This document shows positions 5,142 to 13,601 of a stretch of 64,000 bases of DNA, piece after piece (within the stretch, counting starts at the first letter, position 1; every line of letters starts with the position of its first letter). The DNA is taken from the NCBI GenBank assembly GCA_022822625.1, contig JAJEAV010000005.1, positions 9,965 through 73,964 on the forward strand. The letters run 5' to 3'. The position numbers and the translations under genes were made by a program. The notes under the pieces were generated by a model. That model worked only from the letters and a program-made list of their open reading frames with translations. It did no database searches and was not told the origin of the DNA. Origin of the DNA: Gammaproteobacteria bacterium. Its GTDB lineage: Bacteria; Pseudomonadota; Gammaproteobacteria; Arenicellales; Poriferihabitantaceae.

Positions 5142-7085
5142 ATGTCAATTGCAAGAAAATACCCAGTTAATCCTGACCTTGCCGCGTCGGCAAACATAGA
5201 TCTTCACGGTTATGAAGCCGATTATGCAGAATCCGTTCGCGACCCTGATGGATACTGGGCAAGACAGGCCGAGAAATACATGGACTGGTTCAGGCGGTGG
5301 GATACAGTACGCAATGTTGACTTTACAAAAGGTGATATTCGCTGGTTTGAGGGGGCCGAACTCAATGTCTGTGTCAATTGCGTGGACCGACACCTGGAGA
5401 CCCGAGGTGATCAAGTCGCAATCATCTGGGAATCAGATGATCCCAGTGTTGACAGAAAGATTACCTACAAGGATCTTCACGAAGAAGTCTGCAAGTTTGC
5501 CAATGTCTTGAAATCTCGCGGGGTAAAAAAAGGAGATCGCGTAAGTATCTATTTACCCATGATTCCCGAAGCAGCGGTTTCCATGCTGGCTTGTGCCCGT
5601 ATTGGGGCGATCCACTCCGTGGTATTTGGTGGGTTTTCGCCAGACGCATTGAAGGACCGGATTCTTGACTCGGACTGCCAGGTTGTCATTACCGCCGATG
5701 AAGGCCCAAGGGGTGGTAAAAATGTTCCTCTCAAGCAGAACGTTGAAAAAGCTCTGGAGAAGTGTCCCAATGTCCATACCACGATAGTCGTGAAACGAAC
5801 CGGCAACCCGGTTCCTGGAAATGCCGACCGTGATGTATGGTATGGGGAGGCTGTGGAGGTGGCTTCAGCAGATTGTCCCCCGGAACATATGGATGCAGAG
5901 GACCCGTTGTTTATTCTTTATACCTCTGGTTCAACGGGTAAGCCCAAAGGTGTTGTTCATACTTCTTTTGGCTATCAACTGTATGCGGCATTAACCCACA
6001 AGATGGTTTTTGACTATCATGACGGAGACATATACTGGTGTACTGCCGATGTAGGCTGGGTAACCGGCCACTCCTATATTGTTTATGGTCCACTGACCAA
6101 TGGTGCAACCACCCTGATGTTTGAGGGGGTGCCTACCTATCCGGATGCCAGTCGATTCTGGCAAGTGGTTGACAAGCACAGAGTGGAAATCTTTTATACG
6201 GCACCGACTGCAATTCGCGCACTGATGGGGCAGGGTGAAGAATTGGTCAAAAAAACGGACCGGAGTTCCCTGCGAATTCTGGGTACTGTGGGGGAGCCGA
6301 TCAATCCGGAAGCATGGGAATGGTATTACCATGTTGTTGGCAATGGGCGCTGCCCAATAGTCGATACATGGTGGCAAACCGAAACCGGAGGTATCATGAT
6401 TACACCATTGCCCGGAGCAATAGATCTGAAACCCGGGTCTGCAACTCGTCCGTTCTTTGGCATTCAGCCAGCCTTGATGGATGCAGAAGGTAATGAAATC
6501 AGTCTTGAAGGAGGTGCCGAAGGCAACCTTGTGATCAAGCAATCATGGCCGGGACAAATGCGCACTGTGTATGGTGATCATCAACGATTCATCGACACTT
6601 ATTTCAGTGCCTATCCAAACATGTACTTCACCGGTGATGGTGCGCGTTGCGATGAGGATGGATATTGGTGGATTACCGGACGGGTCGATGATGTTATCAA
6701 TGTTTCCGGTCACCGTATGGGTACTGCGGAAGTCGAGAGTGCGCTAGTGCTTCATGAAACCGTTGCCGAAGCAGCTGTGGTTGGATTTCCCCATGAGATC
6801 AAGGGGCAGGGGATTTACGCGTACGTTACCCTGATGCAAGGAGTTGAGGCGACTGACGATCTGAAAAAGGATCTGAGTGACCTCGTCAGAACGGAGATTG
6901 GTCCAATTGCCAAGCCAGACGTAATCCAGTGGGCACCGGGTTTGCCGAAAACCCGTTCAGGCAAGATCATGAGGCGAATATTGCGCAAGGTCGCCGCCAA
7001 TGAACTGGACAGTCTTGGAGACACAAGCACGCTGGCTGAACCTGCTGTGGTGGATGAGCTGATTGAAAACCGGGCAAATAAATGA
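5142..7085 (+). CDS. acs: Acetyl-CoA synthetase
   Basis: 647 aa. AMP-binding motif [11 protein letters not shown], a C-terminal [11 protein letters not shown] motif, and full-length similarity to Acs. Confidence 0.95.
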
Positions 7086-7089
7086 ATGC

Positions 7090-7574
7090 ATTTGCGGGTT
7101 TCGCGTCAGTAACCTGCAATATGCTGGACTGGAAGAGGTCTGGTCGGTCCGAACCCTCTGAACCAGCGTTGCACAACTCGTTACGAAAGAAAGCCTCTCT
7201 AATATGAATTGACTGGGAGCATTGACACCGTAGAGAAGTATGAAGCATGGAGGATTGACATGGCCAGGGCGGTATGGGCAAAGCTGAGAGCCAGCGATAG
7301 CCGGAAATATCGTAACTGTCATGCGTTTGAGTGCATGGATTTTACCATTCAGGAACCCCGGGCCAGATCAGACCACCAAACAGGGATAGACGAAGGACTA
7401 ATCTGCATCGACTGTCATCAGGGAGTTGCACACAAGCTGTCGTCGAACTGGCTTGAGGAATACGAGAAGTTGAAGAGCCCGGTATCGGCTTCAATATCTG
7501 GAAGGCTGTGGGTGGATGCACTGGCAAATACCGGCACCTATCAAGGTAACAATACGAGCTTACTGGCGAAATGA
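7090..7574 (+). pseudogene. Decayed NapC/NirT/TorC-family tetrahaem cytochrome c gene (C-terminal part only)
   Basis: IDTVEKYEAWRIDMARAVWAKLRASDSRKYRNCHAFECMDF...LICIDCHQGVAHKL matches the last two haem-binding regions of NapC. Upstream, another stretch reads ASVTCNMLDW...LRKKAS where NapC has ATCPDCH...IRKLKAS. There is an in-frame TAA at 7200-7202 and no N-terminal half. Confidence 0.6.
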
Positions 7575-7589
7575 ACCAGAAATTGGATT

Positions 7590-7849
7590 ATGCTTGAAAT
7601 TCTGGGGGGATCTTGGCAGGCAATGTCCTGAGTTTGCCGGGAATGTTCGGTCTGGGTATTGGCATGATGATTCGTTAACCGCATCTGGCTGGAAGTCTGG
7701 GCGGCTTTGTTGGCACATTGGTAGCCATGATATTTTCCGGATTCTCGCTTGCCCAGATCGATGTTCTTGAATTGACATTCCCGGTATGGGTTGGAATTGC
7801 TGCTGGTACGATCGGATGCATGATTCGCCATAGGGGTGCGACGGTATAG
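7590..7849 (+). pseudogene. Small glycine-rich membrane protein gene (GlsB/YeaQ/YmgE-like), disrupted
   Basis: ATG 7590 MLEILGG switches frame at a G6 run (7604-7609) to ILAGNVLSLPGMFGLGIGMMIR. An in-frame TAA follows at 7676-7678, then LAGSLGGFVGTLVAMIFSGFSL...GIAAGTIGCMI to TAG 7847-7849. Confidence 0.3.
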
Positions 7850-7917
7850 ACACCTTTTTTGGTCAGGAGTCGGGTTGGCTTCTTCCCTTGAAAGGTGACT
7901 GCGACAAAAGCGGTAGG

Positions 7918-8835
7918 TCAGAACTGTTGGTTATCGCCTTGATCGTATCCGGGGGCGATAACGAGATTTTCAACTCCATAGAGTGCTGGCCTGTTTTTTA
8001 GCCAGAGGTGGTATTCCGGTCCTTTCAGGATATGGTCTTGGGTGCAGTCCACATTCCATCTCCGAAGTGCATAGCCTGCAACCGCAGCCCTTACCTTGAC
8101 ATTCAACACGCCGTTTTTCATCGCATAGTCGGCTTCAATTGTTTCTGGATGCTTGAGATTTGGGTGCGGTACAAGTTCCAGTTCCAGAATTCTATTCCAC
8201 TGAATATCCGATTCACGAGTTTCATGTTCACCAATCGGACTGTCGATAATCATGGGGTTGGAAATGCGGGTGACAACGAAATCGGAAAATCTCGATTGTT
8301 TTCGATCATAGCTCCGGATGTGCCAGCGTAGTCCGTTATCGACCAGTACAAACGGAACAATTTCGCGGGTAGTCTTGCCGCTGCTAAGAGAGTGATAATC
8401 AATCCTTATCACTTTGTCCTGGTGTATGGCGCGGGTCAAAACCGACAGGGTTGAGAGTGATGGCCTGTTCATCTGCATGGGCGTCTCGCACGAAATTAAC
8501 GCCCGGTTTGCACCAGCAAAGTCGCTTCCAAAGCCATGTGTAAGTGCTGACAAAACCTGGTTAGACGAAGCATCGTATAGAGGCGAGAAAAGGTCTGAAC
8601 GTTCATAAGTCTTGGCCTTGGTATCGTACCTTAGATTGGTTGGGGCCAGTTCCCTGTACAAGGTTATATCCCTGGTTGCCGCTGCTCCCTTGATGCCAAA
8701 TCGGGTCACAAGGTCGTTGCGACTGATGGTTCCCAGAAAACCGATTCTGAAATCGATGTAGGCGAGACGTTCTTTCTGCGCCTTTGCAATGACTTTAGCT
8801 GGGGTAGGAGGAAGTTGATATCCGATTTCCATCAT
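7918..8835 (-). CDS. wHTH-WYL transcriptional regulator (BrxR/CapW-like)
   Basis: N-terminal ERLAYIDFRIGFLGTISRNDLVTRFGIKGAAATRDITLYRELAPTNLRYD (wHTH pattern of BrxR/CapW) and a WYL core VIRIDYHSLSSGKTTREIVPFVLVDNGLRWHIRSYDRKQSRFSDFVVTRI. 305 aa. Confidence 0.75.
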   Translation of the reverse strand: MMEIGYQLPPTPAKVIAKAQKERLAYIDFRIGFLGTISRNDLVTRFGIKGAAATRDITLYRELAPTNLRYDTKAKTYERSDLFSPLYDASSNQVLSALTHGFGSDFAGANRALISCETPMQMNRPSLSTLSVLTRAIHQDKVIRIDYHSLSSGKTTREIVPFVLVDNGLRWHIRSYDRKQSRFSDFVVTRISNPMIIDSPIGEHETRESDIQWNRILELELVPHPNLKHPETIEADYAMKNGVLNVKVRAAVAGYALRRWNVDCTQDHILKGPEYHLWLKNRPALYGVENLVIAPGYDQGDNQQF

Positions 8836-8850
8836 GTTTTCTTGATCATG

Positions 8851-8866
8851 ATATATTATAATATAT
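8851..8866. promoter_or_regulatory. Perfect 16-bp palindrome atatattataatatat in the divergent control region (candidate operator)
   Basis: Self-complementary when checked base by base. Lies 16 nt upstream of the WYL gene's ATG. The 11-mer tataatatata recurs at 8857-8867 and 8877-8887. Confidence 0.4.
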
Positions 8867-8896
8867 ACTATTACTATATAATATATAAATAATTAG

Positions 8897-8926
8897 TTGA
8901 CATACTCATATTGATTATAATATTAT
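8897..8926 (+). promoter_or_regulatory. Possible sigma70 promoter for the plus-strand cluster
   Basis: TTGACA at 8897-8902, an 18-nt spacer, then TATTAT at 8921-8926. Many alternative TATAAT-like hexamers occur nearby, so the assignment is tentative. Confidence 0.25.
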
Positions 8927-9090
8927 TGAATAACATCTTGCGGCAGTTACCGGATAAAAAGGATTTCGCGCAAGACAAGAGTCACGAAAAGGTTTTTCAT
9001 TTTTACGCACAGAATTATACATAACAAAGGCTTCGCCCTCTTGTCCAATGGAGTGTTAACTGGTGATTGCCTTCGCTGAAAGAGACAACG

Positions 9091-9549
9091 ATGGATAACA
9101 ATCAATTACGTTTCGTCCCCTGCGATGCAGGGTGTGGGATGTCCATTTGGACCAGGACTCCCAATGGAAAAGATTGCAGGATTGACCTTGGACGATCTGC
9201 CACATTCTCGCCAGTCAAGTACTTTCCAAAACACAACCTGAATCATTCGGTCGATTTCCTGACTCACCGCCATACGCCACCTGGGAGTGGTGTATATGCA
9301 AAATACCTGTCAGGACATGGGCGTCAATACAAAAACCTGACTGGAAAATTCTTGTCGTCATGCTTCATTGAAGAGGTGGCGTGCACCTGTTCCAGAATGG
9401 AGGAATGGTGTAGGGATAATATGAAAACAGCATCGGGAGGTATTGCAGCAAGGGCCTCGGGCCTTGCTTTTCGCATTAACGAACTGAAATCAGTCTTCGC
9501 CAGATTTCCTCTTAACGGAGGCCCTGCCTTGTCTGCTCTTGTACTGTAA
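9091..9549 (+). CDS. Hypothetical protein; half-length paralogue of the downstream MBL-fold-like protein
   Basis: LRFVPCDAGCGMSIWTRTPNGKDCRIDLGRSATFSPVKY parallels LHFTLWDVRRGISIWIRTPNGQDHWIDLGRIPEFSPSKY of the next ORF. It carries LTHRH and ends where the C-terminal half of the paralogue would begin. Confidence 0.5.
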   Translation: MDNNQLRFVPCDAGCGMSIWTRTPNGKDCRIDLGRSATFSPVKYFPKHNLNHSVDFLTHRHTPPGSGVYAKYLSGHGRQYKNLTGKFLSSCFIEEVACTCSRMEEWCRDNMKTASGGIAARASGLAFRINELKSVFARFPLNGGPALSALVL

Positions 9550-9583
9550 GGCCAAACCCAACCTTTATACAAGGAAAACAACC

Positions 9584-10450
9584 ATGACCAACGAACCACT
9601 TCACTTCACCCTCTGGGATGTCAGACGCGGAATATCCATCTGGATAAGAACTCCCAATGGACAAGACCATTGGATTGATCTTGGCCGCATACCAGAATTC
9701 TCTCCCAGCAAATACGTCAGAAAAAATCATTCGATAGGTTCAATAGAATTGTTGATCATCAGCAGGGCAGGCAAGACACATCTCGAAGACTTGCCGTCAT
9801 TCAAAGATCATTTCTCTTATCCATCTGTCCTTTATCGAAACCCGACAATCCCTGAAGCAGAGATATTTGGAGGCATGACACACAAATATCAGAAGCAATA
9901 TGCTGAATTGCACAGAAGATTTAACTGGCCGGGAGGCGATGATAATCCAGAAAGACCGTCAAACAATGGCGGGATAAGATACGCAATAAACTGTCTTGAT
10001 CATGGTTCCGTAGTCAGCAACCCCGCGCTTCCCGAATCTGCCGTGATTGAAAACAACAATACTTCCATAGTTGTGATGTTGCTGTATGCGGGCGTGCTGT
10101 TTGTCTGCCCGGGAGATATTGAGCCGCTTGGATGGCGCGAGCAATGGCATCACTACTCGAAAGAATATAAATACCTCATAAATCATTCACATGCGAGATT
10201 TCTGGTTGCTCCACAGCGCGGACACAAGGATGCCTACTGTGAGGAAATGATGGAGGCAATCCAGCCCCATGCCACCTTCATCAATGATGTCTGGGGAGAG
10301 TCCGAAATTCACCCGTCCTATAAAAGCGATCCGATAGGAATTCTCTATCGGGAGTCAGGGATGAAGAAGTATTTCTCGACCCGGCGAGCCGGGTCGGTCC
10401 GAGTCGCTGTCTACCCGAGTGGAGAGCACTGTATTCTTCAACGTAGCTGA
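9584..10450 (+). CDS. ComEC/Rec2-type metallo-beta-lactamase-fold-like protein with substituted metal ligands
   Basis: FTLWDVRRGISIWIRTPNGQDHWIDLG resembles FLDVGQGDxxLIxTPxGKxxLIDxG. NNTSIVVMLLYAGVLFVCPGDIE resembles NxxSLVLxxxYGxxxFLLxGDxE. LVAPQRGHKD sits in place of LKVxHHGSK. The HxHxDH position reads SRAGKTH. RBS aagga lies 8 nt before ATG 9584. Confidence 0.5.
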   Translation: MTNEPLHFTLWDVRRGISIWIRTPNGQDHWIDLGRIPEFSPSKYVRKNHSIGSIELLIISRAGKTHLEDLPSFKDHFSYPSVLYRNPTIPEAEIFGGMTHKYQKQYAELHRRFNWPGGDDNPERPSNNGGIRYAINCLDHGSVVSNPALPESAVIENNNTSIVVMLLYAGVLFVCPGDIEPLGWREQWHHYSKEYKYLINHSHARFLVAPQRGHKDAYCEEMMEAIQPHATFINDVWGESEIHPSYKSDPIGILYRESGMKKYFSTRRAGSVRVAVYPSGEHCILQRS

Positions 10451-10603
10451 CAAATGGGCAGGAGCAGGAATCTTGACTTGAAACCATGCCCTTGCCAAGG
10501 AGTATGCAATTGATAACAGATGCAAGTTGAGCAGAAGGAATGAAGAGTGTTATGAGAATGCTTCATGCTACCGACATTATGTTCATATGTTAGAGGATGA
10601 CCG

Positions 10604-10939
10604 GTGGAATATATTTATATTGCTTCCTGGACTTTCATGCTCATAGGGATTTACTACTTGTGGTCAGTAGACCGGAGGGGGAAGTTGAAGCATGAATCAT
10701 CGGAAGATATTGTTGGCTCTGGTCTTGCTGAAGACATTATTGACAGTTATATAGAGCCAGCGATGTTTGGCATCAGTCCTGCTGATCGCTTGTCCATTCG
10801 CAAGGATTTGCTTGCGCGTTTTAGCCAGAAATCTGGCGCCAAGATCGGTGAGCACAGATTCAATGGAAACATGCTGCACCACTGGATGAAATACAACGCT
10901 GCACGACTGATTGTTGAACACAGGAACGACATGCAGTGA
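10604..10939 (+). CDS. Hypothetical single-pass membrane protein
   Basis: GTG start preceded by gagga. N-terminal hydrophobic helix IYIASWTFMLIGIYYLW followed by an ~85-aa soluble tail. I recognise no family. Confidence 0.4.
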   Translation: MEYIYIASWTFMLIGIYYLWSVDRRGKLKHESSEDIVGSGLAEDIIDSYIEPAMFGISPADRLSIRKDLLARFSQKSGAKIGEHRFNGNMLHHWMKYNAARLIVEHRNDMQ

Positions 10940-11095
10940 GGATGTTCGCATTATCAGGACAAAGTCGGGCATTCTGGTGCCATCAAGAAGACTTTTACCT
11001 TGAATCGAATTATTTGACAACGAGATGAAGCAACAAGAAATGTATCCAAATTCAGAAGATCATATTTTACTCACACTATTTTTGGAGAATAGGCA

Positions 11096-11515
11096 ATGAA
11101 AAGAGTCTTATTAATTGCAATAGCTGTATCTGTGTTGACCGGATGTTTCGATGATGCAAAATTGGCATCACGAAATTTAAGCAAGGCTGCCGACAATTTT
11201 GAAGTCATGCGCCGGGTAGTATTCATGAATGGAATAACTGATGCCTACATGCTGGAGATAGTTGGTTTGTGTTCAATTACAGACCAGGAGCATCAACTCG
11301 AAGTTACTTGTAAAAACGGTGATCAGTACGTTAAGCATTTTCTGGGTCTAAGTGACAATGTGACCTATTTCACCGAGCAGCTGACCGCGATAAACGTTTC
11401 GGCAAGTCATTATCGAGTTACTTTCAAGCCGCAGGCGATTATTCCTGATTTTGATCTACGAGGTAGTTTTGAGGAGTTGATCACGAATAGTTCAGAAATC
11501 AATAGTCAAGGGTAG
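11096..11515 (+). CDS. Lipoprotein (phage/plasmid-type small beta-rich lipoprotein)
   Basis: Signal peptide with lipobox MKRVLLIAIAVSVLTG|C, and RBS ggaga. From memory, ASRNLSKAADNFEVMRRVVFMNGITD...LGLSDNVTYF...YRVTFKP resembles lipoproteins seen on plasmids and prophages. Confidence 0.6.
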   Translation: MKRVLLIAIAVSVLTGCFDDAKLASRNLSKAADNFEVMRRVVFMNGITDAYMLEIVGLCSITDQEHQLEVTCKNGDQYVKHFLGLSDNVTYFTEQLTAINVSASHYRVTFKPQAIIPDFDLRGSFEELITNSSEINSQG

Positions 11516-11577
11516 TGAAGGCCGTGACGGATTTAATTGGGCCACATCGCATAGATGAGTCATGTTTTTAACAACCC

Positions 11578-11814
11578 ATGGCAAGACCGGAACTGGTCAA
11601 ATCTCTCTATAAACTCCTTGGCATTGATCAAAGTCTGCCATTATTTCAGGAATCAGAGATATATCTAATTCTCAAAAATGTCACTTATAGAGTAGATAGG
11701 CTGAAGACTGAATCAACATTGCTGATACCGCTTTGTGAAAGCGGTGAGTTGATGATTGTCGGGGCGGAATACGATCTCAAATCCGGCGAGGTGGATTTCT
11801 CTTTGGAGAGTTGA
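11578..11814 (+). pseudogene. Possible C-terminal remnant of a beta-carbonic anhydrase
   Basis: NVTYRVDRLKTESTLLIPLCESGELMIVGAEYDLKSGEVDF resembles the beta-CA C-terminus (NVxxQVxxLxxSPxL...GxLxIxGAxYDLxTGxV). The zinc-binding N-terminal two thirds are absent. Confidence 0.3.
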
Positions 11815-12096
11815 TTAGTGATGGGCATAGTTGGTTACAATACCATTAGAAGCAACGATGATTTCTCAATCTGGTTTTGTGTAAATAATGGGACCTTGGC
11901 ATGATATCTATTGATTTATTGCCATTCTCCAATACTTGGTTTGATTATGGCCGTTTGTAGCTTTGGAGATTCACAGTGCTCTGCTGGCGATGCAAGGCAT
12001 GCTTGGTATTCAGAAATACAATATTCCTCAAAAAAATAATAGGGTTAGTTTTTTGACTCGGCAAACGACAATAATATACAAAACGAGGTCAAGTTT

Positions 12097-12737
12097 ATGA
12101 GTAAGGCGAGAGGAGTAAGGCGAGAGACGATCTTGAGAATTCTTTAAAAGGCAAGACTTTTGGAACAGTTTTAGCAGATCCGCCTTGGCGGTTTACCAAC
12201 AGGACCGGGAAGGTTGCTCCTGAGCATCATCGTCTTTCTCGGTATGGAACATTGTCCTTCGAGGAAATAAAGGATCTACCTGTTATCGACTTGATGGAAG
12301 ATGTAGCACACTGTTATCTATGGGTTCCGAATGCACTGCTGCCATATGGCTTGAATACGCTTGCCGCATGGGGGTTTCAATACAAGACCAACTTGATTTG
12401 GCATAAAGTCAGAAAGGACGGCGGATCAGACGGGCGAGGGGTTGGTTTTTACTTTCGCAACGTCACAGAAGTGGTGTTGTTTGGAGTTAAAGGGAAAAAC
12501 GCCCGGACTCTACCTCCAGGGCGAAGCCAGGTTAATTTGATTGCTGCCCGAAAGCGTGAGCATTCTCGTAAACCTGATGAGCAATATGACCTGATTGAGA
12601 GATGTAGCTGGGGCCCGTACCTCGAATTATTTGGTCGAGGCACGCGAGAGGGGTGGACAGTCTGGGGTAATGAAGCAGTCAAATATCAACCCGACTGGCC
12701 AACCTACCCATACAACTCTGCTGTTGCAGCTCAATGA
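12097..12737 (+). pseudogene. MT-A70-family DNA methyltransferase (DPPW), frameshifted by a 14-bp tandem duplication
   Basis: FGTVLADPPWRF (DPPW at 12177-12188) and downstream HCYLWVPNALL...EHSRKPDE. ATG 12097 runs into TAA 12145-12147. Removing one 14-nt copy restores a 208-aa ORF. Confidence 0.8.
12099..12126. repeat. Perfect 14-bp tandem duplication (gagtaaggcgagag x2)
   Basis: 12099-12112 equals 12113-12126, checked base by base. Confidence 0.95.
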
Positions 12738-13482
12738 AAACCATTGCGGATCTAAAGGATGTAGGATTTGACATTCATGCCGTCAATCACGCTATGGCGG
12801 TTCTAACGAAGGACTTCCCTGACCCTTTGGGAGAATTATGCTCAGCCCTTCTTGATATCCATATTCCAGATGTAGAGTTGGTCAAGTCAGGAGGTGGTGA
12901 ATCGCCGGTTACACAAAGACTGCGCAGGGAATTAACAGAATTGAACTGGCTAAAGCGAAGGGTCGTAATCAGAAAAACAGTTGACAATGTCGAGAGACAT
13001 TCAATCACACATGAGATTGATCACATGAGATTGATCACATGAGGGTGACTGAAAAAGGAGTAGTTGCATTAGAGATCGAGTGGAACAACAAAGATCCGTT
13101 TTTTAATCGTGATCTTGATAATTTCCAGCGACTGCATAGCGAGGGGGCAATTAGCGTTGGTGTCATTGTTACCCGTGGTAGTTCTCTTCAGGAAAACCTA
13201 ATCCAAATCATAAGTGCATGCGTTATGAGGCATAAAGTTGCAGAGTTCGGGGATTTGGAAATGCATTACGATTGGGTGCCGACTCCAAGACAACGTAACA
13301 ACATGAGGGATAAAAAGGGAGACTTTGGCCAGGAGTGGGTCAAGCAGTTCGTTAAAGACAAATTTGGACAATCGACCACACACTGGAAAAAATTGCAGGA
13401 TAGGATAAAGCGCGGAGTTGGCAACCCATGTCCATTACTTTTGGTCGGTATACCAGACACAGTTATTTATCAAGGGAAATAA
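12734..13482 (+). pseudogene. Type II restriction endonuclease (BamHI/BglII-like PD-(D/E)xK), split by a 14-bp tandem duplication
   Basis: HEID...VALEIEWNNKDPFFNRDLDNFQRL...GAISVGVIVTR parallels BamHI ID...VGMEFETGNISSAHRSMNKL...GEIDLAIILMP. The track shows two ORFs (12734-13042 and 13039-13482). Removing one repeat copy fuses them in frame (244 aa). ATGA overlap with the methylase stop. Confidence 0.65.
13008..13035. repeat. Perfect 14-bp tandem duplication (cacatgagattgat x2, plus a partial third copy cacatgag to 13043)
   Basis: 13008-13021 equals 13022-13035, checked base by base. Confidence 0.95.
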
Positions 13483-13601
13483 CTAACACAAAATAACGAG
13501 CGAGGCATAGCCAAAACGCTTTCCAAAAGTAGAAGTACCGCTAAACATATCGGGTCATTGACAATTGCATGTTCAGTACAGTAACTCGCTGGAAATTCGA
13601 T

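What the first reader, a model, noticed from the sequence alone, without database searches (positions are those of the whole stretch)
9091..10450. Tandem paralogues: a half-length copy keeping HxH and a full-length ComEC-type MBL fold with most metal ligands replaced
Seen in the sequence:
- The two ORFs share 25 of their first 48 aligned residues by my hand alignment (MDNNQLRFVPCDAGCGMSIWTRTPNGKDCRIDLGRSATFSPVKY vs MTNEPLHFTLWDVRRGISIWIRTPNGQDHWIDLGRIPEFSPSKY).
- Weaker collinear matches follow: GHGRQYKNLTGKF vs THKYQKQYAELHRRF; GGI...FRINEL vs GGIRYAINCL; GPALSALVL vs NPALPESAVI.
- ORF1 stops exactly where ORF2 continues into NNTSIVVMLLYAGVLFVCPGDIE. The two are 34 nt apart, and ORF2 has its own RBS.
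- Against the ComEC/Rec2 MBL pattern, ORF2 reads SRAGKTH where HxHxDH (HADxDH) is expected, and APQRGHKD where VxHHGSK is expected. ORF1 retains LTHRH.

Inference: this is either a pseudo-enzyme plus an ancient partial duplicate, or a two-subunit arrangement in which the conserved motifs are split between two polypeptides. The divergence is too great for a recent duplication, yet both frames remain open.
Basis: partly seen in the sequence, partly recalled or inferred. Interest (0 to 1): 0.7.

Follow-up and report, generated by a model that had tools for sequence, protein, structure and literature searches.

The report
Decayed copy beside inactive MBL-fold gene
The short ORF is the wreck of a once full-length sister gene, broken by two deletions and a frameshift. 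It sits next to an intact ComEC-type metallo-beta-lactamase-fold gene that has lost most of its metal-binding residues, so this is mostly ordinary gene decay in a sponge-symbiont genome.

Summary
ORF1 (9091-9549) and ORF2 (9584-10450) are real paralogues at the N-terminus (29/54 identical, E 1e-14).

**ORF1 is a pseudogene.**
- Related sponge-symbiont Gammaproteobacteria carry a full-length ~290-aa "gene A" at this position, followed by "gene B", the orthologue of ORF2.
- In the window, gene A has a 78-nt in-frame deletion that removes the metal-motif segment. It also has a 1-nt frameshift and a ~470-nt deletion that fuses it to the A-B spacer.
- The "HxH" (THRH) aligns with LHRN downstream of the motif. 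It is not a retained ligand motif.

**ORF2 is an intact MBL-fold protein with a degenerate site.**
- Its fold is ComEC-type (AF2 pLDDT 89; Foldseek top hit is ComEC domain 9ic4; family profile vs ComEC E 1e-8).
- It reads R-A-G-K-T-H and Q-R-G where about 80 homologues read H-P-D-x-D-H and H-H-G.
- All members of the A/B tandem clade lack the same two His residues, so the motifs are not split between the subunits.
- A and B are nevertheless under purifying selection (dN/dS 0.13-0.23).

**Context.** The pair sits beside a divergent BrxR/WYL regulator in a small portable module. Canonical relatives are instead followed by a patatin phospholipase. The surrounding window region is full of other pseudogenes.

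**Verdict.** This is a decayed instance of a rare, undescribed pseudo-MBL pair. Interest is low to moderate.

The parts
7918..8835 (-). BrxR-family WYL transcription regulator (305 aa), divergent from the MBL genes; appears intact
   Evidence: Pfam WYL 3e-11 and PADLOC WYL 6e-17. Orthologues 85-88% identical carry precomputed WHD_BrxR + WYL + BrxR_CTD. dN/dS 0.15-0.17.
8897..8926 (+). Sigma-70-like promoter candidate (TTGACA-18-TATTAT, 11/12) in the BrxR / gene A intergenic region, flanked by AT-rich palindromes
   Evidence: This is a consensus match only. The region is partly conserved in L002.
9091..9261 (+). ORF1 codons 1-57: N-terminal segment of gene A, still in frame. Family-conserved residues are replaced (FTLWD to FVPCD, HW to CR).
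   Evidence: BLASTP to intact gene A (P0070): 73/177 identical overall, E 2e-32. Alignments A2 and A3.
9259..9262 (+). Junction of a 78-nt (26-codon) in-frame deletion that removes the gene A segment IVSYPDxxHL...RS(L/M), the H-x-D-x-D-H-equivalent motif region
9262..9376 (+). ORF1 codons 58-95: gene A segment still in frame (THRHTPPGSGVYAK...SSCFIE). A 1-nt deletion lies at 9376|9377.
9377..9423 (+). Frameshifted gene A sequence (read as VACTCSRMEEWCRDNM), ending at the junction of a ~470-nt deletion that removes the whole C-terminal half of gene A
   Evidence: The gap is 470 nt against L002 and 472 nt summed against intact L001.
9424..9549 (+). ORF1 tail (KTASGG...ALVL*), homologous to the A-B spacer / micro-ORF X of relatives and ending at a premature stop. 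It is not MBL sequence.
9584..10450 (+). ORF2 = gene B: an intact 288-aa standalone ComEC-type MBL-fold protein with a degenerate metal site (R61 A62 G63 K64 T65 H66; D178 kept; Q211 R212)
10604..10939 (+). 111-aa protein with a hydrophobic N-terminus by inspection; co-travels with the module
   Evidence: tblastn 65-72% identity at the same position in L002 and L005. dN/dS 0.17-0.28. No family hit.
11096..11515 (+). VG64-like putative lipoprotein; co-travels with the module
   Evidence: Pfam Phage_VG64 1e-52. phrog_478 5e-50. About 90% identity in L002 and L005. dN/dS 0.10.

Best explanation
ORF1 is a dead remnant of "gene A". Gene A is the upstream member of an ancient tandem pair (A, B) of standalone ComEC-type MBL-fold proteins, found so far only in a few sponge-symbiont Gammaproteobacteria (the one named genome is Ca. 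Poriferihabitans, Arenicellales).

In the window, gene A suffered a 26-codon in-frame deletion, a 1-nt frameshift and a ~470-nt deletion. The last deletion fused it to the A-B spacer, and the 152-aa open frame is an accidental mosaic.

ORF2 is gene B. It is full-length and folds as an MBL. It lacks three of the five residues that coordinate Mn2+ in ComEC (H61R, D63G, D65T) and both His of HHG. It is therefore inferred not to be a binuclear metallo-nuclease.

The first motif-2 His (H61) and the second His of HHG (H212) are replaced in every member of the A/B clade. H212R is shared by all of them and so probably predates the duplication. H61 became Tyr in A and Arg in B, so it may have been lost before the duplication or independently in each copy.

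The A/B clade has evolved under purifying selection as a non-catalytic or differently catalytic protein pair. It belongs to a small portable module (BrxR regulator, A, optional micro-ORF, B, a 111-aa protein, a VG64-like lipoprotein).

By inference, BrxR represses the operon from the shared intergenic promoter region. The module is a candidate defence or stress cassette derived from a commoner MBL + patatin-phospholipase operon.

In this genome the cassette is eroding, along with its neighbours: the nap operon, an 85-aa gene and an R-M pair.
For: **Syntenic relatives**
- L002/L003 have acs-napFDABC-o85-BrxR-A(279 aa)-B-o112-VG64.
- L001 has intact A (P0070, 290 aa) plus the start of B.
- L004, L005 and L032 have both A and B full-length.

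**Decay of ORF1**
- ORF1 matches P0070 better than ORF2 (E 2e-32 vs 1e-14).
- DNA alignments locate the 78-nt, 1-nt and ~470-nt lesions.
- The ORF1 tail is homologous to the spacer micro-ORF.
- The same ORF1/ORF2 sequence occurs in two other assembly records, so it is not an artefact of one assembly.

**Fold of ORF2**
- AF2 pLDDT 89.3, pTM 0.91.
- Foldseek top hit is ComEC domain 9ic4, E 6e-12.
- Family profile vs ComEC structures gives E 1.4e-8, with H-P-D-x-D-H, GD and HHG aligned.
- ComEC H598A, D602A, H603A and D700A are virtually inactive (PMC12455585).

**Motifs, phylogeny and selection**
- About 80 of 90 full-length homologues keep SHPDxDH/HHG. Only the tandem clade is degenerate, and the window copy is the most degenerate.
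- The tandem clade is monophyletic (1.0), with A (0.89) and B (0.94) as sisters.
- dN/dS is 0.13-0.19 for B and 0.20-0.23 for intact A.
- Window-branch N:S is 17:19 against 13:24 for L002, which is not clearly relaxed.

**Context**
- Neighbouring pseudogenes are documented.
- The module occupies a different chromosomal site in L005/L032.
- The defence link rests on PADLOC hits to PDC-M48B and weaker hits to the MBL models of RTasMBL, LmuA and Avs1a, and on the BrxR neighbour.
Against: - No experimental or expression data exist for any member.
- Loss of canonical ligands does not prove loss of all activity. D178, H66 and H243 remain, and Arg residues now sit at positions 61 and 212.
- The defence assignment is by association only. 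The ORF2 hit to PDC-M48B is moderate (7e-22, against 2e-137 for true members), and no PDC-M48A partner was found.
- Pairwise dN/dS averages over time, so recent relaxation of ORF2 after the loss of A cannot be excluded.
- Only 3-4 independent lineages carry the intact pair.
- The A frameshifts in L002 could in principle be assembly errors, although two assemblies agree.
Confidence: 0.82

Rival explanations
1. Two-subunit enzyme. ORF1 supplies the missing His ligands (HxH) and ORF2 supplies the rest of the MBL fold, rebuilding one active site from two polypeptides.
For: - The two ORFs are adjacent, co-oriented and share a homologous N-terminus.
- ORF1 contains H-R-H and ORF2 lacks the motif.
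Against: - H-R-H aligns with LHRN / LYRN downstream of the motif, and the true motif region is deleted.
- Intact gene A reads Y-P-D-x-x-H and RRG. It lacks the same ligands as B.
- ORF1 lacks the whole C-terminal beta-sheet half of the fold, and 40% of it is frameshifted or spacer-derived.
- Family-conserved W11, H29 and W30 are replaced.
Confidence: 0.03
2. The whole locus is dead. ORF2 is also a pseudogene in waiting. It is still open by chance after its partner A was destroyed, and it has no remaining function.
For: - ORF2 has the most eroded motif of all 90 homologues, including unique G14R, H15R and D63G.
- Its window-branch N:S (17:19) is higher than the L002 branch (13:24).
- The surrounding 6 kb holds at least five other pseudogenes.
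- Partner A was lost independently in the window and in L002.
Against: - ORF2 is full-length, with no frameshift or premature stop.
- Its RBS is kept.
- dN/dS against L002 is 0.19, similar to BrxR at 0.17.
- The N:S difference is small, and BrxR on the same branch is 24:35.
- 12 deviations at >=90%-conserved columns is within the range of intact clade members, which show 10-24.
Confidence: 0.25
3. ORF1 is a new functional small protein, for example an N-terminal decoy or regulator of B, or a new fusion with micro-ORF X, selected after the deletions.
For: - The frame stays open for 152 codons across three lesions. It keeps the promoter-proximal start and a weak RBS.
- An identical sequence appears in two further assemblies.
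Against: - No other genome has this architecture.
- The N-terminal piece shows raised dN/dS (0.37-0.44, and 0.43-0.91 for codons 58-94) compared with 0.20-0.23 for intact A.
- The three assemblies are essentially one population, with 0-1 mismatch.
Confidence: 0.04

Closest known systems
C-terminal beta-lactamase-like (MBL) nuclease domain of ComEC/Rec2 (e.g. Moorella glycerini BLACT, PDB 9ic4; PMC12455585)
   Same: - The fold is the same: Foldseek E 6e-12, TM 0.65.
- The motif layout is the same in the canonical relatives (DVGxG, H-P-D-x-D-H, GD, P-H-H-G), and the family profile hits ComEC at E 1e-8.
- There is a precedent for a degenerate copy. The paper states that S. pneumoniae ComEC probably has an inactive domain lacking some metal ligands.
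   Different: - ORF2 is a standalone ~288-aa protein with no channel or OB domains.
- It has R-A-G-K-T-H and Q-R-G in place of the ligands whose Ala mutants kill ComEC nuclease.
- Its genomic context is a BrxR-linked cassette, not competence genes.
PADLOC candidate defence protein PDC-M48B, and the MBL modules of Avs1a, LmuA and DRT 'RTasMBL'
   Same: - Sequence-profile similarity: ORF2 7e-22 and canonical relative 5e-34 to PDC-M48B models.
- Weaker hits to RTasMBL, LmuA and Avs1a MBL models.
   Different: - The scores are far below true PDC-M48B (2e-137 for a neighbouring gene in L015).
- No PDC-M48A partner was identified.
- The usual partner here is a patatin phospholipase with no PADLOC model hit.
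- No paper mentioning PDC-M48 was found.
BrxR / CapW-type WYL repressors beside defence systems (PMC9122601, PMC9122589, PMC9122588)
   Same: A divergent wHTH-WYL-CTD regulator lies immediately upstream of the A/B operon.
   Different: - Regulation of these MBL genes by BrxR has not been shown.
- The Picton et al. main text does not mention MBL or ComEC-like cargo.
- In L005, BrxR itself is reduced to a remnant while A and B are intact.
Paralogous MBL heterodimers with one inactive subunit (CPSF73/CPSF100, INTS11/INTS9). This comparison comes from general knowledge and was not tested here.
   Same: A duplicated MBL-fold pair in which metal ligands have been lost while the fold is conserved.
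   Different: - Here both paralogues lack the same ligands.
- There is no beta-CASP domain.
- Heterodimerisation is only conjecture.

Membership tests
MBL-fold superfamily, ComEC-type beta-lactamase-like domain | Alpha-beta/beta-alpha sandwich fold resembling solved ComEC BLACT | tested here: met
   AF2 model pLDDT 89.3, pTM 0.91. Foldseek top hit 9ic4, E 6e-12, TMq 0.65, followed by Pce, CPSF73 and RNase J.
MBL-fold superfamily, ComEC-type beta-lactamase-like domain | Significant sequence-profile similarity to ComEC MBL domains | tested here: met
   The family profile A1 hits 9vcb, 9vcf, 9ic4 and 30bt at E 1.4e-8 to 9e-7. ORF2 alone gives no Pfam or PDB sequence hit.
MBL-fold superfamily, ComEC-type beta-lactamase-like domain | Motif 2, H-x-D-x-D-H metal ligands (ComEC H598, D600, D602, H603) | tested here: not met
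   ORF2 reads R61-A-G63-K-T65-H66, so only the last His is kept. About 80 of 90 homologues keep H-P-D-x-D-H. In ORF1 this segment is deleted.
MBL-fold superfamily, ComEC-type beta-lactamase-like domain | Motif 4 Asp (ComEC D700, in GD) | tested here: met
   CPGD178IEP is invariant, including in ORF2. It is absent from ORF1 because the C-terminal half is deleted.
MBL-fold superfamily, ComEC-type beta-lactamase-like domain | P-H-H-G motif (ComEC H725/H726) | tested here: not met
   ORF2 reads A-P-Q-R-G. All tandem-clade members have Arg at the second position.
MBL-fold superfamily, ComEC-type beta-lactamase-like domain | Metal-dependent nuclease activity | not testable with these tools
   This needs purified protein, metal analysis and nuclease assays.
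PADLOC PDC-M48 candidate defence system | B component matching PDC-M48B models at full-member strength | tested here: inconclusive
   ORF2 scores 7e-22 (76 bits) over most of the model, whereas true members score 345-455 bits.
PADLOC PDC-M48 candidate defence system | Presence of the partner PDC-M48A | tested here: not met
   No neighbour in the window or in related loci hit a PDC-M48A model.
BrxR-associated defence cassette | Adjacent wHTH-WYL-CTD (BrxR-type) regulator | tested here: met
   Window 7918-8835 (-) hits WYL. Orthologues are annotated WHD_BrxR + WYL + BrxR_CTD.
BrxR-associated defence cassette | Protection against phage or mobile elements | not testable with these tools
   This needs heterologous expression and phage challenge.
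Pseudogene (applies to ORF1) | Truncated or disrupted relative to intact orthologues | tested here: met
   152 aa against 290-292 aa in L001, L004, L005 and L032. The lesions are 78-nt, 1-nt and ~470-nt deletions.
Pseudogene (applies to ORF1) | Relaxed selection on what remains | tested here: inconclusive
   dN/dS is 0.22-0.44 (codons 1-57) and 0.43-0.91 (codons 58-94), against 0.20-0.23 for intact A. The segments are short.

The most novel reading that the evidence does not exclude
The intact A/B pair is a functional cassette under BrxR control, with or without the 59-aa micro-ORF X and together with the 111-aa and VG64-like proteins. In it, two ComEC-type MBL paralogues that both lost their metal ligands act non-catalytically. 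They might form a heterodimeric nucleic-acid sensor or scaffold, or an Arg-based metal-independent hydrolase. They would have replaced the patatin effector of the ancestral MBL + patatin operon. Gene B (ORF2) can persist and work without A.
Probability: 0.2. Interest if true: 0.55.

Novelty: new variant of a known kind. Interest (0 to 1): 0.3.

Why it matters
**For this window.** The result is mainly corrective. ORF1 should be annotated as a pseudogene fragment, not as a half-length paralogue or enzyme subunit. ORF2 should be annotated as a ligand-deficient ComEC-like MBL-fold protein.

**Beyond the window.** Three things were not found described in the searched literature:
- A widespread standalone ComEC-like MBL + patatin operon, mostly in sponge-associated MAGs of many phyla.
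- A small derived clade in which the patatin is absent, the MBL is duplicated in tandem, both copies lack the same catalytic His residues but stay under purifying selection, and a BrxR regulator is attached.
- Repeated independent decay of gene A.

If the pair is functional, it would be a bacterial example of conserved pseudo-MBL paralogues. It would also be a candidate new defence cassette.

Tried and rejected
**Direct family and structure searches**
- Pfam and NCBIfam on ORF1 and ORF2 gave no hits.
- Single-sequence PDB search gave only noise.
- PHROGs gave nothing for ORF1, ORF2 or gene A.
- Rfam on 7000-13600 at E<=0.1 gave nothing.

**Literature**
- "PDC-M48" and "Poriferihabitans" returned no papers.
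- Searches for patatin + MBL defence found only unrelated systems: HamMAB and CBASS.

**Searches for more loci**
- A JGI metagenome scan with P0070 found no close A-type relatives.
- A scan with the tandem-clade alignment found only canonical MBL + patatin loci at <=45% identity.

**Technical failures and rejected alignments**
- The first phylogeny script timed out and a second failed on a missing id. It was redone with a hand-written NJ and bootstrap.
- An alternative alignment placed ORF1 CCTGACT on the P-D-W codons of motif 2. I rejected it in favour of a single 26-codon in-frame deletion, because THRHTPPGS aligns in frame with L005-A VHNVTLPES.
- I considered that ORF1 + ORF2 might be one split gene. 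This is rejected because relatives have two separate full-length genes.

Full report
**1. The observation**

The window holds ORF1 (ATG 9091, stop 9549, 152 aa) and ORF2 (ATG 9584, stop 10450, 288 aa). They are 34 nt apart, and AAGGA lies 8 nt upstream of the ORF2 start.

BLASTP confirms the N-terminal paralogy: 29/54 identical, E 1e-14, and nothing significant after residue 54. A family HMM adds one short homologous stretch, ORF1 residues 72-103.

**2. What ORF1 is**

A database search with ORF2 returned 109 homologues of about 289 aa. One of them, P0070, resembles ORF1 much more than ORF2 does (73/177 identical, E 2e-32, with a 26-residue gap).

The genomic contexts settle the question.
- In the syntenic relative L002/L003, the order is acs, napFDABC, an 85-aa gene, BrxR (-), a 279-aa P0070-type gene ("A"), the ORF2 orthologue ("B", 83% identical), a 112-aa gene and a VG64-like gene.
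- L001 has an intact 290-aa A and the start of B.
- L004, L005 and L032 have both A and B full-length.

DNA alignments show three lesions in gene A of the window.
- A 78-nt in-frame deletion at about 9261|9262 removes IVSYPDxxHL...RS(L/M).
- A 1-nt deletion lies at 9376|9377.
- A ~470-nt deletion at about 9423|9424 removes the entire C-terminal half.

After the last junction, the ORF runs through DNA homologous to the A-B spacer. In L001, L002 and L004 that spacer forms a 59-60-aa micro-ORF. ORF1 then ends at a premature stop. About 40% of ORF1 is therefore frameshifted or spacer-derived.

The "retained" LTHRH aligns in frame with VHNV of L005-A, ARSL / ARNL of L001/L002-A, and LHRN / LYRN of canonical members and ORF2 (residues 83-86). 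That is downstream of the ligand motif. Intact A reads Y-P-D-x-x-H at the motif itself.

Family-conserved W11, H29 and W30 are also replaced in ORF1.

The same sequence is found in a Logan contig (identical) and an ENA scaffold (1 mismatch). The lesions are therefore not a single-assembly artefact. ORF1 is a pseudogene relic.

**3. What ORF2 is**

ORF2 alone hits no Pfam, NCBIfam or PDB sequence. The family profile, however, matches solved ComEC/Rec2 MBL domains at E 1.4e-8 to 9e-7, with DVGxG, H-P-D-x-D-H, GD and P-H-H-G aligned.

The AF2 model is confident (pLDDT 89.3, pTM 0.91). Its best structural match is the ComEC beta-lactamase-like domain 9ic4 (E 6e-12, TM 0.65).

In that ComEC domain, H598, D600, D602, H603 and D700 coordinate Mn2+. 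Their Ala mutants are virtually inactive, except D600A, which is about 5-fold reduced. H725 and S728 are proposed substrate contacts (PMC12455585). These residues map to family positions H61, D63, D65, H66, D178 and H211.

ORF2 reads R61, G63, T65, H66, D178, Q211 and R212. It also has RR in place of GH in the first motif.

Among 90 full-length homologues, about 80 keep SHPDxDH and HHG. Only the tandem-clade members are degenerate, and the window copy is the most degenerate. The inference is that ORF2 is not a ComEC-like binuclear metallo-nuclease.

**4. The tandem clade**

NJ with bootstrap places all A and B sequences in one clade (1.0), with A (0.89) and B (0.94) as sister groups. This indicates one ancient duplication.

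A-type proteins read Y-P-D-x-x-H and R-R-G. B-type proteins read R-x-D/G-K-x-H and (Q/H/Y)-R-G. Both paralogues lack the same ligands, which excludes complementation of split motifs.

Both paralogues are nevertheless under purifying selection. dN/dS is 0.13-0.19 for B and 0.20-0.23 for intact A, comparable with 0.15-0.17 for BrxR and 0.10 for acs.

On the window branch, B shows N:S = 17:19, against 13:24 on the L002 branch and 24:35 for BrxR. This is at most a mild, non-significant relaxation.

Gene A was inactivated independently in the window and in L002. L002-A has frameshifts near the C-terminus. L001 is closer to L002 than to the window by BrxR identity and keeps A intact.

**5. Context and likely function**

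Canonical single-copy members are immediately followed by a patatin-like phospholipase gene (Pfam E about 1e-15). The two genes often overlap. This holds in at least 22 loci from many phyla, mostly sponge-associated MAGs.

Tandem-clade loci have no patatin gene. Instead they carry a divergent BrxR-type WYL regulator, A, the micro-ORF X (where present), B, a 111-aa protein and a VG64-like putative lipoprotein. This set occupies a different chromosomal position in L005/L032 than in the window and L002, so it moves as a unit.

PADLOC relates the family to candidate defence protein PDC-M48B (7e-22 for ORF2, 5e-34 for a canonical member). It relates it more weakly to the MBL models of RTasMBL, LmuA and Avs1a. 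BrxR / CapW-type regulators are known companions of defence systems (PMC9122601, PMC9122588).

The best-supported reading is a BrxR-linked candidate defence or stress cassette built on a pair of pseudo-MBLs. The mechanism beyond this is inference only.

A promoter-like site (TTGACA-18-TATTAT) and AT-rich palindromes lie in the BrxR-A intergenic region.

**6. The neighbourhood is eroding**

Several genes within about 6 kb are broken.
- Only a napC C-terminal remnant is left of the nap operon.
- The 85-aa gene carries in-frame stops.
- The MT-A70 methyltransferase lacks its N-terminus, and the BglII-like endonuclease is split in two.

ORF1 is one more casualty of this decay.

**7. Verdict**

ORF2 is a ligand-poor ComEC-type MBL, and the duplication is ancient. 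ORF1, however, is a pseudogene whose HxH is coincidental, and the split-motif idea fails.

The feature is a decayed instance of a rare, undescribed variant: a tandem pseudo-MBL pair with BrxR, derived from a commoner MBL + patatin module. Interest is low to moderate.

Noticed in passing
window 7209-7574 (+): This is a C-terminal remnant of napC/nirT-type cytochrome (TIGR02161 4e-26, profile positions 105-182 only). The syntenic relative L002 has intact napF-D-A-B-C between acs and the BrxR module, so the periplasmic nitrate reductase operon has been deleted in this genome.
   Followed up: partly
window 7592-7849 (+): This is a homologue of a conserved 85-aa gene that precedes BrxR in L001 and L002 (72% identity). 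In the window it is interrupted by two in-frame stop codons.
   Followed up: partly
window 12252-13482 (+): This looks like a dead type II R-M pair. The MT-A70 methyltransferase lacks about the first 50 profile positions (TTG start). The BglII-like endonuclease is split into two overlapping ORFs (12734-13042 covering profile 1-78; 13039-13482 covering profile 78-162).
   Followed up: partly
L001 2420-2599; L002 7825-8004; L004 1109-1291: A 59-60-aa micro-ORF fills the A-B spacer. Its ATG overlaps the stop of gene A (ATGATGA) and its stop overlaps the ATG of gene B (CCATGA). It is open in three diverged loci (about 34% identity by eye between L001 and L004) and absent in L005. In the window it has lost its start and carries a premature stop, and it forms the ORF1 tail.
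   Followed up: partly
L006, L008, L011-L013, L018, L020-L022, L024, L025, L033-L036, L038-L042, L044, L047: The canonical ComEC-like MBL with intact H-P-D-x-D-H and HHG is followed immediately, often with overlap, by a patatin-like phospholipase gene. This two-gene operon occurs in Alpha- and Gammaproteobacteria, Acidobacteriota, Gemmatimonadota, Planctomycetota and Verrucomicrobiota, mostly in sponge MAGs. The patatin partner has no significant PADLOC hit (one member scored E 0.013), and I found no paper describing the pair.
   Followed up: partly
L015 8406-9338; L023 8369-9478 (Bdellovibrionales MAGs): About 0.5 kb downstream of the family MBL lies a second, different MBL gene. It is a full-strength PDC-M48B (2e-137 and 8e-104). 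This is another kind of tandem MBL arrangement.
   Followed up: no
window 11096-11515 (+); L002 9400-9816; L005 8676-9032: A VG64-like protein with a lipoprotein-type signal (MKRVLLIAIAVSVLTGC). It hits Pfam Phage_VG64 at 1e-52 and phrog_478, annotated as a recombination directionality factor, at 5e-50. It is about 90% conserved with dN/dS 0.10, and it travels with the BrxR-A-B module. Its role is unknown.
   Followed up: partly
L005 5516-5749 (Ca. Poriferihabitans OZ244855): BrxR is reduced to a 78-aa N-terminal remnant while genes A and B remain intact. This is the opposite pattern of decay from the window.
   Followed up: no
window 8839-8883: A ~42-nt AT-rich palindromic insertion (TATA repeats) lies in the BrxR / gene A intergenic region. 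It is absent from L002 and sits just upstream of the promoter-like TTGACA-18-TATTAT at 8897-8926.
   Followed up: no
window 11578-11814 (+): A 78-aa ORF with a weak match to only the C-terminal end of beta-carbonic anhydrase (Pro_CA 113-156/156, E 0.005). It may be another gene fragment.
   Followed up: no
L021 415-1666 (Terriglobia MAG): The canonical MBL is split into two ORFs (profile 1-106 and 100-288) directly upstream of its patatin partner. This may be a frameshifted copy or an assembly error.
   Followed up: no
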